From Eledone cirrhosa (lineage: Eukaryota): a stretch of DNA of 64,000 nucleotides. The first letter of the stretch is position 1, and each line of letters starts with the position of its first letter. Shown in pieces: positions 3,490 to 12,300 of the stretch. The position numbers and the translations under genes were made by a program. The notes below the pieces were generated by a model that worked only from the letters and a program-made list of their open reading frames with translations, was not told the origin of the DNA and did no database searches. The DNA lies in the NCBI GenBank assembly GCA_964016885.1, contig OZ024744.1, positions 49,662,001 to 49,726,000 on the forward strand, given 5' to 3'.

Positions 3490-3707
3490 GTATTGACAAT
3501 TGTTTCATTAATCAGGTGAGTCTAGAGGCCGCTAATCGCTCGAGTTGCGTCACTCAATCTCCATTACATTATTTACCTAATCCCGTTGAGGTTGACTTTG
3601 CCTTTCATCCTTACGGGGTCGATAAAATAAAGTACCAGTAATGTACTGGGTAATTGCTGGCCAAAAGTAGAAACAATTATTTACCTCTGATCAAATCCTC
3701 AGAATAC
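3490..3707 (-). ncRNA. Type I hammerhead ribozyme with SINE inserted in loop II
   Basis: Minus strand: gtatt-CTGAGGA-t-ttgatcag...ctgattaa-t-GAAAC-aatt-GTC-aatac. Confidence 0.6.
3579..3675 (+). mobile_element. SINE family A, 5'-truncated, 11-bp TSD attatttacct
   Basis: TSD at 3568-3578 and 3676-3686; absent from the sister repeat at 3783-3971. Body gaggttgactttgcctttcatccttacggggtcgataaa resembles the Meta/MESC SINE central domain (recalled, not searched). Confidence 0.85.
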
Positions 3708-4934: not shown

Positions 4935-4992
4935 AATAATAATAATATGGTTTCAAATTTTGGCACAAAGCCAGCAATTTCTTTGGGAGAGG
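4935..4992 (-). mobile_element. SINE family A 3' fragment with (ATT)n tail
   Basis: Minus strand ttgctggctttgtgccaaaatttgaaacc-atattattattatt. Confidence 0.55.
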
Positions 4993-5035
4993 AAGTTGAA
5001 GGTATAAAAAACACAACAGAGCAGGGTAAAGCTGA

Positions 5036-5778
5036 TGTAGCGACTAGCGCCACCTTGCCCGGGGAGAAAAAACTTTTTAAAGAAGGAACTGTCTTCGGGC
5101 GCAGCATCACTGAGGTCACGGATACGCCGTAAAAACTCTGTAGGAGTTCTGTCCCCTAGATTTTCAACCTCTAATAAGGAACGAAATTTACTCTCAGGCG
5201 ACCTACAGTTCCTACCTCTGCCTTCAGAGACTCGTAGGAAACGCCTTGGGGAGGGTTCGTGATTATGTATTTTACTGTAATTGCTAGTGAAGCTGGAATT
5301 CCGCTGATTAGCACGTTTAATTTTTGCTGTTTTTCCTGTACTCAATTGACCGCAAAATACGCATCAAACTGGGCGAACCACAATTTGGCATCGCCAGAAT
5401 ACGCTGGTAACGTTGTGTTGCTGATGATGAAATTTGGTCGAGAGAGATGATTTTCTTTTTCAAAAGGTCGGTAGAAATTATATGTTCAAACGTCGGTAGA
5501 AATTATATGTTCACTTTAGTGAATTAGTCACAGGGTTATTTACTTTGGTAAACGCCACTGCAGGCCAACCACTAATTTAATTCGATACAGATATAATAAG
5601 GTTAACAAACTCGCTCGTGAGTGAACTGGCCGAGAGCCGTCGCCAAATAAGCCAAGATGTCTCTTTTCTCCCTCCTTTATAATCCCTAAACCGGAAGTTC
5701 AAGGAATCCTCTAGAATTCAACGGGAAGTAATTCCAATTAGTTTTTTCTCCCCGGGCAAGGTGGCGCTAGTCGCTACA
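5036..5778 (-). mobile_element. Gypsy-derived LTR plus gag fragment bounded by 39-bp perfect TIRs and a 4-bp TSD (CTGA)
   Basis: TIRs at 5036-5074 and 5740-5778 (TGTAGCG...CGCTACA). ctga at 5032-5035 and 5779-5782. Putative LTR 5778-5546 with TATAAA. Gag-like WFAQFDAYF and LGDRTPTEFLRRIRDL. Confidence 0.8.
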
Positions 5779-6653
5779 CTGAGAAACAGATTGACAATAT
5801 GGATGAAGGTACTTCTACTCTTGAACATAAAGATCAGATAGAAAAGGCAAAACAAGAAATTCTCAATGAATTTGGAAAAATAAAAAGCATTAGAATGGGT
5901 GAAAGAGAGTCCTTGCAAAACTTAACAAGCATCAACCAGAACAAAACACATAAGAACTAAAAATCAGGTTATTAAAGCAATAATTGAAGGATGGAGCCTG
6001 ATATATCATAATTAAATGAGGTTGTTTATGCAGTAGCAACGGCAATAGAGAGGAAATGCGGGTTAAAGAAAAAGCAAAATAGACAAAACACTCACAAAAA
6101 ACCACCCTGGAAGGTAAAAATTGAGAAAGAAATTGAAATGATGAAGGGAGAAATATCAATCCTGGATGAAATATGTGCTGGGAAGTCTGTCAAGTCAAGA
6201 AAAGGAAGGAAAGTGATTAAGAAATACAATGTGACTTCAAAGCCTGTTATTCCATCAATCAAAGAAACCCCCGAAACAGAAAGTTCAGCTGAACGCTCAA
6301 AGAATCAGAAGATTTGAAAAACGAAATAGGTTTTACAGACAAAATAAGCTGTTTTTTGTCTGATACGAAAAGATTTTATAGAGAAATTGGGACACAAACA
6401 ATTCAAGTAAAGGAACATCCTTCGATCTGTGAAATTGAACAATTCTAGAAAACAGTATGGAGTACAGAAAAATCCCATAATGCAAATGGAGAATGGATAA
6501 AGAACATGGAAGAAACATACGATAATTTAGAAAGACAAACTGTGCAAGACATAACTTTGGAAGAACTGGAGTTTGCACTAAGGAAAGCAAATAACTGGAA
6601 ATCCCTGGCATTGATAAAGTGCCAAACTTCTGGTTATCTTCTCATTATTTGTT

Positions 6654-6759
6654 CAAATCCCGCCAAGGTTAACTTTGCCTTTCATCCTTACGGGGTCGAT
6701 AAAATAAAGTACCAGTAATGCACTGGGTAATTGCCAGCCTTGTACCAAAAGTAGAAACA
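6654..6759 (+). mobile_element. SINE family A, TSD attatttgtt
   Basis: TSD at 6644-6653 and 6760-6769; interrupts the Dong ORF. Confidence 0.85.
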
Positions 6760-6843
6760 ATTATTTGTTGGTAAAATATTATAACGAAATTATGCACAAC
6801 CCTGAAAAAATCTAATTGGTTTGCACAGGGTATAACATATCTC

Positions 6844-7893
6844 TTGCCAAAATCGACAGAAACAAATACTCCAGAAAATTATTGCCCTACAACTTGCCTT
6901 CCTACATCACACAAAATTGTCACATCAATCTTGACTGAGACAACCTACAAATTTATGGATGGAAATAATTTATTCCCTATTGAGCAGAAAGGTTGCCGCC
7001 GTGGGTCTTGCAGATGCAAAAACCAACTTCTCATTAACTGCATGATTCTGAAAAACTGTCATAAAAAGTATAGAAGTCTGAGTACTGCTTGGATTGACTA
7101 TAAGAAAGCATTTGATAGTGTTCCCTACACATGGATTTTGAAAATTTGCGATGTTCTGAAAATTTCCCCAGTAATAACAAACTTCCTGAAATACAAAATG
7201 TCTTTCACTGTCATAGAGTGTTGGAACAAAAGTATTAGCTGTGGTATTTTTCAAGGTGATTCGTTCTCTCCTCTGATATTTTGCATTACACTCACACCGT
7301 TGTCTTTAGTGCTCAACAAAACAAAATATGGCTACAAAATAAACAGTAAAACAATAAATCACCAGTTTTATATGGATGACTTGAACCTCTGTGCTAAAAA
7401 TGACAACGAATTGGAAGGACCGTTGAAAACAGTCATGGTGTTCAGTGATGATATGGGGGTAGCGTTTGGATTGGAAAAATGTGTCAAAGCAACGTTCAAG
7501 AAAGGCAGAATTACAAGCACAAACTCACTGGAAATAGATGTGAATACTTTAATTAGGAAACTAGAACAGGACCAAACCTACAGATATCTAGGGATCAATA
7601 ATTGCCAGGGTATTCACCACGCCAGCATGAAAAAGAGAATCAGAAAGGAATGCTACTGGAGAGTATGTGCTATCATGAAAACGGAATTTAACTCGAGAAA
7701 TAAATTATCTGCCATAAATGCGCTTGCAATCCCTGTTGTCACCTACAGTTCCAATATTATAAACTGGAACATTAACAAAATTAAGAGAATGGACACCAAA
7801 ATCAGGAAACTTTTGACTTGTAATAGAATTCATCTCACAAAAGTAGATATGGTTGCCTCTATCTCTCTAGACAAAATAGACGTAAAGGAATGA
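6844..7893 (+). pseudogene. Dong/R4 reverse transcriptase fragment
   Basis: RT motifs in the ORF track (DYKKAFDS, QGDSFSP, YMDD). Confidence 0.85.
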
Positions 7894-9391: not shown

Positions 9392-12300
9392 CTACAGCCG
9401 CATGACCAGAGTAGGCCCACTCACACGGGCCATTCTCGCCATATTCACCCACCTTTCAGAAAATGTACTGGGAGGCAGCACTTCTCTCTTCACCCTCACC
9501 TTCCTTTCCAAGTGAAACTTGAAAAAGTTGATGAGGGATTGGCCGAATAGAAAAGTGTCTGTCTTCAGTCCTTTCAACCTCGTCCACCATACAACCTCTT
9601 TCGCTACTGCCACCAGATAGGAAAATTGCCTGCCCTTCCTGGTCAAAAGAAGGCGGCGGGTCGATCTTCATTATGGACTCGGCCGATAGCCGGATCCGTT
9701 CTACACGCGACAGTAGCTGTTCAACATAACTCCACAAGTCAGTAATGCACGGACACTGGACGAGTGCGTGCAGAACGGTTTCGTCGCTCTGCGCGCATCT
9801 CGGGCAGGTCCGTCTGACAGCACTTCCGTGCCTGTAGAGTTTATCTCGAACCGGCAGTGCCCCCCGGTAGCACTGCCAAGCGAGGGATTTTTGGAAATTA
9901 TCCATCGTCCCCGGCTCGAAAGTTCTCCGGTACAGACTGGTTAGTTCGATTTCGTTGACTCCCAGAGCCTCTCCGAGTGCATCGTCGCACTTTCCCACCA
10001 CTAATCCTCTATAGAACTCGAGAGTGGAAGTTCCACTAACCGCATTGCCCGCCTGTTAGAGGGCAGTGAGTGCCTAGCAACATTCCAGATGCCAATCACC
10101 CAGTCTCAGTCTCTTCTTGACCTAGGACTGCAGCTCAGTCAAAGAAACGAGCTGCGGAAAGGCCCGTCTGACAAACGGCGACCACACCTGTTCACCGTTT
10201 AGGCAGAATATCTGGAGATGCCGCAGCCTCAGCGCGTGCCTGCGCATCATTAGCCACGGCATGCCCAGCCCTCCACGTAGAGGGTGCTGGCAGCAGATGG
10301 ATCTCTTCACCAGCGGAACCTGACGCCTCCACAAGAATTTGAGAGGAGCCGCTCCAAGATGGCGAGGCGCGAACGGGGGCAAGGGACGACGGTCAGACGG
10401 TAGTAGATGACGGACGCGATGTACGCGTTCGCCACCTCCCCCCGACCTTTCAGTGATAGCTTCATCCCCGCCCATTTCTGGGTGAGACTGGCTACCCTGC
10501 CCGTCATCTCGTCCCAATTCTTATCCACCTGGAGGTCTGGCCCGAACGAAACCCCGAGCAACTTTACCGGTCCGTCCATCCAGCGCCTAACGACGCTGTT
10601 GGACGGCATGGCCTTGCCTCTCCAGGTGCCGAGTTGCAAGCCCACCGACTTTTCCGGGTTAAGTTTTGCTCCCGTCAACCTTTCATATTCCTCCAATAAG
10701 TTGCTGACCACCTCGATTTCTGAGGTGTCCGACACCATCACGGTGATGTCGTCCGCATAAGCCGACACAGCCTTTCCGCGTCCCGGTTCGAGCGGGATGC
10801 CCTGTAACAGCTCCAGCTTCCGCAGTAAAGGCTCGAGAGTCAATACGTACAGAAGGGAGGGGAGAGGGCACCCTTGACGGACCGATCGGGAGACCTGAAA
10901 CGGTTCCGAGAGGTGGCCATTAATTTTGACCATCGAGCAGGTGCCGCTGTGCATTGCAGCGATCCAGCTTCTGAAGACGGGGCCGAAGCCAGCCGCCTTG
11001 AGGACAGCCTCCAGGTACCGATGGTCGACCGTATCGAATGCTTTCGATTGATCTAAATTGATCAGAGCCCCACCGAAGCCAGGTTTACACCTTACCCTCT
11101 CTATGATGTATCGCATTAGGTGGAGGTTGTCGTGTATGGACCTGGTTGGGATTGCGCAAGTTTGCGCCTCCCCAACCAAATCCCTGACGACAAGCGCCAA
11201 CCTCTTCGCTAACACCCTGGCCAAAATCTTAAACTCTGTGTTGAGCAGAGTTATGGGCCTGAAATTGTCTAATGTGTCCCTCTTGTTCTCGCCTTTCCTT
11301 ATCAGCGTCACTACGCCCCGGCTCACAGAACTGGGAATACTCCCGTTTTGCTGCCAGTTGCAGTAGAGCGCTTCGAGGAGATTGGAGAACAAGTCTGGCA
11401 TATTTACGTAAAGCTCGTAGGGCAGACCATCCAAGCCGGGTGACTTGCGCCTCATGCAGCCGACAAGGGCATCCTGAATCTCGGCTGAAGTAACTGGCCT
11501 TTCGCAGCTCCCAGCGTCAGCCGTCGAGAGTTGCGGCAAGCCATCGAGGTAGGGACTGAAGTCCGCCACCATCTCTGACCCACCACTTCCCCCGAACAAC
11601 CAAGGAAAATGTTGGCGAAAGGCCTCACACATCCGCTTGGAATCGCTCAGCTCGTGTCCGTCTCGGTCCGTCAAAGACCGAATCGTGGTTTTATTACCAC
11701 GCTGCGCCTCTGCCACTCGGGCCCATCGAACAGCTTTGGTTCCCTCGTTTCTCAGAGCACGCGCCTTAGCTCTGACAATGCAACCTTCGTGTTTCGCATT
11801 GAAGAAATGGTCTAATGCCATTCTCGCCGCTAGCACGTCAGTTGCAATGCCACTACCAATAGCCTCGTCTAACTTATCTACCAACTTCCCCTCCTTTCTA
11901 TTTTTCTCTAATGCTACTTCTTTGCTAAACTCTATCGAGATTACTCTAATCTCTCTTTTGAGAACCCCCCCCCCCACCATCTATTGTTGACGACTCCCCC
12001 TGTCAACTTTTTCTTAACTAAATTGTTGACCTGGTCCCTGTAAGCCTTACGTGCCGCAAATGACATGTTTAGCTTCCAGTAACCAGGTCCTAACCTACGC
12101 GTCTTATCTAGGTCGACCATACAGATCACAAACTTGTGATCTGAATAGGCGACCGTTTCAAAACGTGGTCAGCTTACACTATTTCTATCTATTTTCCTAA
12201 TGAATATCCTGTCTATATACGATCTAGATGACCCTATGCGGTTAGCCCAAGTCCACACTTGCGCATTAGGGAAATCTAGTCGGTACCTGTCAGACAGTTG

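What the first reader, a model, noticed from the sequence alone, without database searches (positions are those of the whole stretch)
5032..5782. LTR-retrotransposon fragment converted into a TIR element with TSD
Seen: a 743 bp unit with perfect 39-bp inverted ends TGT..ACA and a 4-bp TSD CTGA. Removing it restores the host Dong frame (..EQGKA|EKQIDN..). The interior is one LTR, a PBS-like site and Gypsy gag, but the far end is an inverted copy of the LTR start instead of a direct 3' LTR. The join falls at agttttttctc, which also reads as gag-like KFFL, suggesting microhomology fold-back. Established: Ginger DNA transposons use a Gypsy-like integrase, TGT ends and 4-bp TSDs. Inference: integrase accepted two identical LTR ends, giving either a one-off aberrant cDNA or a MITE-like family bridging LTR elements and Ginger.
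Basis: partly seen in the sequence, partly recalled or inferred. Interest (0 to 1): 0.72.

Follow-up and report, generated by a model that had tools for sequence, protein, structure and literature searches.

The report
Retrotransposon misfire with two left ends
This 743-base insert is a single broken copy of a common retrotransposon that carries the element's left end at both termini, likely joined by a copying error and then inserted by the normal enzyme; nine other mirror-ended inserts of the same family, each joined differently, point to a recurring accident rather than a spreading new element.

Summary
5036-5778 has perfect 39-bp inverted ends and a true 4-bp duplication (CTGA occurs once in 12 of 14 empty LINE paralogs). 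The parent is a CsRn1-like Gypsy family (264-bp LTRs ending TG..AA, tRNA-Trp primer site, CHCC Gag, 4-bp TSDs). The unit is LTR bases 1-39 joined to an inverted LTR plus gag start; its real primer site is deleted. The junction is single-copy, so this is not a MITE or Ginger family. It is not a lone oddity either: 10 of 119 family loci examined have mirror ends (7 left-left, 3 right-right) with exact 4-bp duplications, all with different joints. Four carry copies of the primer tRNA; in three these run past position 58 with a wrong base there, which ties them to reverse transcription. A pairing test favours the short arm priming on gag over simple fold-back. Best reading: stray plus strands primed each other in the particle, and integrase accepted two identical ends. 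This scan noted the same phenomenon before, in this and other genomes; my paper searches found no description. It offers a one-step route from LTR to terminal inverted repeats, but no mirror-ended copy carries integrase.

The parts
5032..5035 (+). Left copy of the 4-bp target-site duplication (CTGA)
   Evidence: single CTGA in 12 of 14 empty LINE paralogs
5036..5074 (+). Short arm: bases 1-39 of the family LTR (U3 start), forming the left inverted end
   Evidence: 39/39 complementary to 5740-5778; equals the LTR start of full-length copies
5062..5074 (+). Joint zone: 13-nt gapped match between the short arm's 3' end and the gag template, with 4-nt perfect overlap at 5071-5074
   Evidence: best-pairing site of 64-69 candidates in 4 of 5 parent copies
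5075..5425 (-). 5' fragment of gag, broken
   Evidence: matches internal positions 16-466 of a full-length copy at 90%; the matching parent ORF hits DUF7041, E 1e-16; the window's own ORF piece had no Pfam hit
5463..5512 (-). Two copies of a 25-nt leader repeat that follows the primer site in the family
   Evidence: variable copy number in other copies
5512..5514 (-). Remnant of the tRNA-Trp primer-binding site; 13 nt are missing compared with intact copies
5515..5778 (-). One complete 264-bp LTR (TG...AA); its first 39 bases form the right inverted end
   Evidence: 2.0% from the nearest and 4.6% (median) from other LTR copies
5779..5782 (+). Right copy of the target-site duplication (CTGA)
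4990..5031 (+). Host non-LTR retrotransposon, upstream of the insertion
   Evidence: 82-95% to paralogs where the left flank aligned next to the right flank
5783..7893 (+). Host non-LTR retrotransposon, downstream, decayed, with RT domain at 6775-7893

Best explanation
The unit is a single dead copy of a CsRn1-like Gypsy retrotransposon in which the first 39 bases of the LTR are joined to an inverted LTR-plus-gag piece, likely because two unfinished plus-strand DNAs primed on each other during reverse transcription, giving a DNA with two left ends that the element's integrase likely inserted. Shown: structure, exact ends, TSD, parent family, single-copy joint, nine sibling mirror-ended inserts with other joints, primer-tRNA copies in four of them. 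Inferred steps: (1) the polypurine tract primed plus strands repeatedly, as described for Ty1/Ty3, leaving displaced plus strands that all begin at the same U3 base; (2) one plus strand (Y) transferred, skipping the primer site, and ran about 0.7 kb into gag; (3) a 39-nt plus strand (X) annealed by its 3' end to Y in gag and copied Y back to its first base, while Y was trimmed and filled in over X; (4) the blunt duplex, U3 at both ends, was integrated in one concerted step with the family's 4-bp stagger; (5) with no polypurine tract, second direct LTR or primer site it cannot be copied again by the retro route, and no excision enzyme has spread it.
For: Exact LTR terminus at both ends plus 4-bp TSD, the family's normal TSD length. 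10 of 119 family loci are mirror-ended with an exact 4-bp duplication, chance 0.0064 per pair; of 8 left-left candidates with both termini intact, 7 have it. Intact copies carry an 11-nt primer site followed by element sequence (18 loci), while an 18-nt or longer tRNA-Trp copy follows the LTR in 17 other loci, none of them a full-length collinear copy; the copies include the CCA end that the tRNA genes lack, and all 7 read-through matches that the script found (6 loci) have C or T at position 58 where the gene has A. Mirror units break where the Ty3 model puts dead-end strands: at the LTR end (L077, L066, L219) or in the tRNA (L052, L053, L116) (PMC5371799 passages). Arms share family polymorphisms: 0 differences in L053 and L077 against a mean of 11.6 between loci. 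At the window joint the short arm as primer ranks 1 of 64-69 sites in 4 of 5 parent copies; the fold-back polarity ranks 26-28 of 81-84.
Against: The window unit itself holds no tRNA sequence, so its RT origin is argued from siblings. Its 39-bp arm spans no polymorphic column, so the same-template test cannot be applied to it; for short-LTR units that test is weak (5 columns; 303 of 773 unrelated pairs also differ at 0-1). The polarity test is post hoc, uses other copies as stand-ins for the true donor, and missed the site in 1 of 5 copies. L131 looks like a true fold-back hairpin, so fold-back also happens in this family. Some sibling-family read-throughs keep the gene's base at position 58. 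One left-left candidate (L079) and one clipped unit (L122) have no TSD. No read set confirms the inner joint.
Confidence: 0.72

Rival explanations
1. Same origin in reverse transcription, but by intramolecular fold-back: the long plus strand looped onto its own base 36-39, copied to its 5' end, and the panhandle was later opened into a duplex by another nascent strand or by host repair before or during integration.
For: 4-nt perfect overlap at the joint; arms 39/39 identical; L131 has a 72/72 hairpin whose two arms share a chimeric joint and the position-58 error, and L077 turns on 6 nt at the very LTR end.
Against: As a fold-back primer the joint ranks only 26-28 of 81-84 sites; the longer match lies on the short-arm side. 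A panhandle offers one double-stranded end and needs an extra step.
Confidence: 0.14
2. A normal full-length element inserted first; later a chromosomal template switch or repair event replaced everything past gag with an inverted copy of the first 39 bases, keeping the old TSD.
For: Microhomology joints are common in repair; the two LTR termini resemble each other in their last five bases; the family has many deleted copies.
Against: Needs a second joint exactly at the terminus with no loss; must happen 7 times (10 with right-right units); cannot supply CCA-ended tRNA copies with position-58 errors.
Confidence: 0.06
3. Two separate elements inserted in opposite orientation and the DNA between them was deleted (the route suggested for Ginger1 in PMC2836005), or one end was joined by host repair as in aberrant HIV proviruses (PMC5041404).
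For: 165 LTR starts in the genome; nested and adjacent copies occur.
Against: One matching TSD with a contiguous empty site; two insertions would give unmatched flanks. Arms of L053 and L077 come from one template lineage. Host-joined ends in the HIV work usually give truncated ends and long duplications or deletions.
Confidence: 0.03
4. The unit is a non-autonomous TIR element (MITE) moved as DNA by a Ginger-like transposase or by the Gypsy integrase.
For: TGT termini, 39-bp inverted ends and 4-bp TSD resemble Ginger (PMC2836005).
Against: Joint found once; joints of L116 and L066 also found once; all 10 mirror units differ; every listed 24-mer terminus that I fetched mapped to the LTR family; 0 of 10 TSDs are CCGG/CCGT/ACGG.
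Confidence: 0.03
5. Assembly artefact (inverted chimeric read).
For: No contig crosses the inner joint.
Against: Ends stop exactly at the LTR terminus with a TSD confirmed by paralogs; arms of sibling units differ by 1-5%, so they have aged; one contig crosses the left host joint without differences.
Confidence: 0.02

Closest known systems
CsRn1 clade of Ty3/Gypsy LTR retrotransposons (PwRn1, AgCR1-14; PMC2582038, passages read)
   Same: Parent family has a tRNA-Trp primer site, CX2HX9CX3C Gag motif, 4-bp TSD without target preference, LTR ends TGT...AAA, order gag-RT-RNase H-integrase.
   Different: The unit has U3 at both ends in inverted orientation, no second direct LTR, no pol, no primer site. 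Clade placement by tree was not done.
Dead-end plus-strand strong-stop DNA of yeast Ty1/Ty3 (PMC5371799, passages of section 2.2 read)
   Same: Repeated priming at the polypurine tract yields displaced plus strands ending in the tRNA or at the U5 end; the primer sequence is not inherited by normal copies. The family here shows the same pattern: 11-nt site in intact copies, 18+ nt only in aberrant ones.
   Different: In yeast these are described as unintegrated dead ends; here they are joined into two-ended DNAs and fixed in the genome with TSDs.
Ginger1/Ginger2 DNA transposons (PMC2836005, first fifth of the text and passages read)
   Same: TGT termini, inverted terminal repeats near 40 bp, 4-bp TSD, Gypsy-type integrase chemistry (inferred).
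   Different: No transposase, no amplification, no CCGG/CCGT target, interior is gag; formed anew each time instead of by cut and paste.
Aberrant HIV/ASLV proviruses (PMC5041404, passages read)
   Same: Integrated viral DNA with rearranged or inverted pieces.
   Different: Those have one integrase-joined end and one host-joined end with long duplications or deletions; here both ends are exact and the duplication has the normal length.

Membership tests
CsRn1-clade Gypsy (parent family) | tRNA-Trp primer-binding site | tested here: met
   11-nt site in 18 loci, complementary to ARAGORN-called tRNA-Trp genes of this genome; deleted in the window unit
CsRn1-clade Gypsy (parent family) | CHCC (CX2HX9CX3C) Gag motif | tested here: met
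   found in natural translations of 10 of 13 full-length copies; lies beyond the part kept in the window unit
CsRn1-clade Gypsy (parent family) | 4-bp TSD and TGT...AAA LTR ends | tested here: met
CsRn1-clade Gypsy (parent family) | RT, RNase H, integrase in Gypsy order | tested here: met
   RVT_1, RT_RNaseH, Integrase_H2C2, rve (below cut-off, split ORF) in L034
CsRn1-clade Gypsy (parent family) | RT phylogeny groups with CsRn1 | not tested
   no named reference sequences were fetched
Intact LTR retrotransposon / TRIM (the unit) | two direct LTRs with primer site and polypurine tract | tested here: not met
   one LTR plus inverted 39 nt; primer site deleted; no tract
Ginger DNA transposons | TGT termini, TIR of about 40-270 bp, 4-bp TSD | tested here: met
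   39-bp TIR, TGT ends, CTGA
Ginger DNA transposons | integrase-like transposase inside the TIRs, or an autonomous partner with these TIRs | tested here: not met
   interior is gag; none of 10 mirror units holds the integrase region; fetched terminus hits all map to the LTR family. 65 of 165 terminus hits were not listed
Ginger1 | CCGG/CCGT target specificity | tested here: not met
   0 of 10 mirror-unit TSDs
MITE | many copies with the same structure at different sites | tested here: not met
   joint found once; two sibling joints found once each
R4/Dong non-LTR clade (host) | clade-level RT and endonuclease placement | not tested

The most novel reading that the evidence does not exclude
Mirror-ended products of reverse transcription are the missing first step from LTR retrotransposon to DNA transposon: Gypsy particles routinely make TIR-bounded DNAs with integrase-competent ends in one step, and a long one that keeps the integrase gene would be a newborn Ginger-like element; this unit is a small fossil of that step.
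Probability: 0.15. Interest if true: 0.8.

Novelty: new variant of a known kind. Interest (0 to 1): 0.5.

Why it matters
PMC2836005 calls the chain of events from an LTR element to a TIR-bounded DNA transposon unclear and suggests two chance insertions in opposite orientation. Here one family made TIR-bounded, TSD-flanked inserts at least 10 times in single events, which gives a simpler route and a test (look for one with integrase inside). The inserts also record reverse-transcription intermediates of an animal Gypsy: repeated plus-strand priming, a primer sequence that is not inherited, a stop and misreading at tRNA position 58, and an integrase that takes left-left or right-right end pairs. 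In practice such units will be mis-annotated as MITEs. The limit: nothing here shows spread, and no mirror unit codes for integrase.

Tried and rejected
MITE family: rejected, joint single-copy. Internal deletion of a longer TIR element: rejected, other copies continue into gag-pol and end in a direct LTR. Self-priming (Tf1-like, recalled) was considered because the unit lacks a primer site; dropped when intact copies showed a tRNA-Trp site. A one-step genome search for mirror pairs did not run, so the survey rests on fetched flanks. ARAGORN found no whole tRNA gene at 7 junction loci: the captures are partial. Public runs: 3 contig sets of one sample and 2 RAD-seq read sets gave no verdict on the inner joint or on empty alleles. 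Twelve sibling-family stretches were screened for an integrase-bearing mirror element; none was established, L233 stays unresolved. Paper searches for a prior description: searches returned 0 papers; one search listed 25 of 88, none containing 'inverted LTRs'; some searches returned 1, 3 and 4 papers, listings only except PMC5041404. Lauermann and Boeke 1997 was not held. The library lacks most subscription papers and bioRxiv supplements, so absence from print is not shown.

Full report
1. The observation. The unit runs from 5036 to 5778 (743 bp). Its arms, 5036-5074 and 5740-5778, are 39 nt and fully complementary, and CTGA flanks both sides. I searched the genome with the right-hand host flank (41 matches, 15 loci including the window's own) and laid both flanks separately on the 14 paralogs. 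The flanks are contiguous, and 12 of 14 read CTGA once at the site. The duplication is therefore a real target-site duplication. The host is a decayed non-LTR element (RVT_1 at 6775-7893); its clade was not tested.

2. The parent. A genome search with the unit gave 636 candidates, 40 scored. No other copy matches bases 1-26 in line; all continue into more gag and pol. Full-length copies are about 4.7 kb with direct LTRs (264-bp and 446-bp subfamilies), ends TG...AA and 4-bp TSDs. Natural ORFs of one copy hit DUF7041, RVT_1, RT_RNaseH, Integrase_H2C2 and, below cut-off, rve. The CX2HX9CX3C motif occurs in 10 of 13 copies. The primer site matches tRNA-Trp genes called in this genome. These are the features given for the CsRn1 clade in PMC2582038 (passages read). 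Read on the minus strand, the unit is a whole LTR (5778-5515), a primer site with 13 nt missing, two leader repeats, about 350 nt of broken gag, then the inverted LTR start. Its LTR is 2.0% from the nearest copy and 4.6% from the median; direct LTR pairs in the family differ by 0.7-7.7%. A perfect 39-bp arm is unremarkable at that age (about 0.17 by simple arithmetic).

3. Not a mobile family. The joint occurs once with a gapped exact pattern and once with up to 3 mismatches.

4. A recurring class. The LTR-start 24-mer has 165 hits, of which 100 were listed; the short-LTR end motif has 93; LTR plus tRNA patterns gave 12 and 155 hits (100 listed). I fetched flanks and mapped them. After leaving out 16 duplicate loci and 31 loci of sibling families, and not mapping 8 further duplicates, 119 loci remain. 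Seven have the left end at both termini with an exact 4-bp duplication: the window (CTGA), L052 (TATC), L066 (CATC), L077 (CCTC), L219 (GACC), L116 (AGTC, found by a second pass) and L053 (TATA, in a TA array and so uninformative). Three have the right end at both termini: L131 (AACT), L193 (AAGG), L206 (CTAG). A chance match has probability 0.0064 per pair. Against this: L079 has left-left geometry without a TSD, L122 has a clipped end and no TSD, and a number of loci have no resolvable second end. All ten joints differ; those of L116 and L066 were searched and found once each. The sample is not random (L131 came in through a tRNA pattern), so 10 of 119 is a rough rate. None of the ten contains the integrase region.

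5. Tie to reverse transcription. In 18 loci the primer site is 11 nt followed by element sequence. In 17 others the LTR is followed by 18 nt or more of tRNA-Trp complement, then a jump, often to the opposite strand; the script flagged 20, and I dropped 3 that I could not tie to this family's LTR; L116 and L122 add two by eye. The captures include the CCA end, absent from the four tRNA genes printed, and all 7 read-through matches that the script found (6 loci) have C or T at position 58, where the gene has A; L116 shows the same by eye. That position 58 is usually methylated and stops or misleads RT is recalled knowledge. Several sibling-family read-throughs keep the gene's base there. Four mirror units (L052, L053, L116, L131) carry such captures; three others (L066, L077, L219) turn at or within a few bases of the LTR end. 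PMC5371799 (passages of section 2.2; the lead came from earlier notes) describes for Ty1/Ty3 repeated priming at the polypurine tract, a first plus strand that ends in the tRNA, a second that ends at U5, displacement of both, and non-inheritance of the primer sequence. The pattern here fits that scheme.

6. One event, not two insertions. At sites polymorphic in the family, the arms of L053 and L077 differ at 0, against a mean of 11.6 between loci (3 of 85 pairs at 0). For short-LTR units the counts are 0 (L052), 1 (L066) and 1 (L122) against a mean of 1.9, a weak test. The window's arm is too short to test.

7. Polarity of the window joint. Taking the 39-nt arm as primer, the observed gag site is the best-pairing of 64-69 candidate sites in 4 of 5 parent copies (-9.3 kcal/mol); in the fifth the site fails the 3-nt filter. 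Taking the long strand as a fold-back primer, the site ranks 26-28 of 81-84 (-3.5). The template had to include U3 to its first base, so it was plus-strand DNA rather than genomic RNA (inference from the standard LTR cycle). I infer that two plus strands primed on each other, which gives a blunt duplex with two left ends and needs no hairpin opening. Fold-back remains the main rival; L131 has the look of one (72/72 hairpin, both arms sharing a chimeric joint and the position-58 change).

8. Reads. Three contig sets of one sample and two RAD-seq sets were laid on the region. One contig at depth 2 crosses the left host joint without differences but with only about 20 letters inside; none crosses the inner joint; unique flank is barely covered. 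No verdict.

9. Comparison with what is known. It looks like a Ginger end (TGT, about 40-bp TIR, 4-bp TSD) but fails membership: no transposase, no copies, no CCGG/CCGT targets (PMC2836005, first fifth and passages read). That paper calls the path from LTR element to DNA transposon unclear and proposes two opposed insertions; the units here were made in single events. Aberrant HIV proviruses (PMC5041404, passages) differ in having a host-joined end. My searches found no description of integrated two-left-end products, within a library that lacks most subscription papers. This scan's earlier notes report the same phenomenon in this genome and in others (none for this sequence). My reading was written before I opened them (notes); they are unchecked and I do not count them as support.

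10. Verdict. Real, single-copy, dead; one member of a recurring class of mirror-ended reverse-transcription products of a CsRn1-like family. New variant of a known kind; interest 0.5. The bold reading, that such products are the first step to Ginger-like transposons, is not excluded but lacks an integrase-bearing example (probability 0.15).

Noticed in passing
L233 2550-3032 and 6610-7400 (G000:C2:283227550-283232400): Sibling tRNA-Trp family: a 483-bp self-palindromic right-end unit with a tRNA hairpin occurs twice (99.8% alike) around a long pol frame, the second copy inside a larger palindrome that runs into the flank; fold-back propagated as a terminal repeat, or an assembly duplication.
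   Followed up: partly
L065 4717-5200: Left end present at one side only; the other side starts in the leader repeat, yet AGGT appears on both sides: possibly a one-ended integration with a normal-length duplication.
   Followed up: partly
L054, L057, L064, L086, L093, L094, L098, L111, L133, L196, L198: Copies with normal left-right ends and TSDs but one or more internal inversions, many starting right after an 18-nt tRNA copy.
   Followed up: partly
L229 4388-5191: Left-left unit of a sibling subfamily (LTR, 18-nt tRNA copy, about 280 unrelated bases, inverted LTR) in an AAT array.
   Followed up: partly
L235-L237, L240-L244: Several other LTR families also show read-through far into tRNA-Trp; some keep the gene's base at position 58, others do not.
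   Followed up: no
G000:C4:353394000-353490000 and C4:277407000-277444000: Tandem clusters of tRNA-Trp-like sequences (dozens of copies, two T-loop variants).
   Followed up: no
window 4935-4995: The host LINE copy lacks roughly 0.9-1.5 kb just upstream of the insertion site compared with paralogs.
   Followed up: no
window 3580-3680 and 6620-6760: A short repeat occurs twice and interrupts the host LINE at the second place; SINE- or MITE-like.
   Followed up: no
window 10307-11980 (-): A second non-LTR retrotransposon with a 557-aa RT-bearing frame (RVT_1, E 2e-27).
   Followed up: no
window 5463-5512; L030, L042, L045, L048: The 25-nt leader repeat behind the primer site varies from one to at least six copies among family members.
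   Followed up: no
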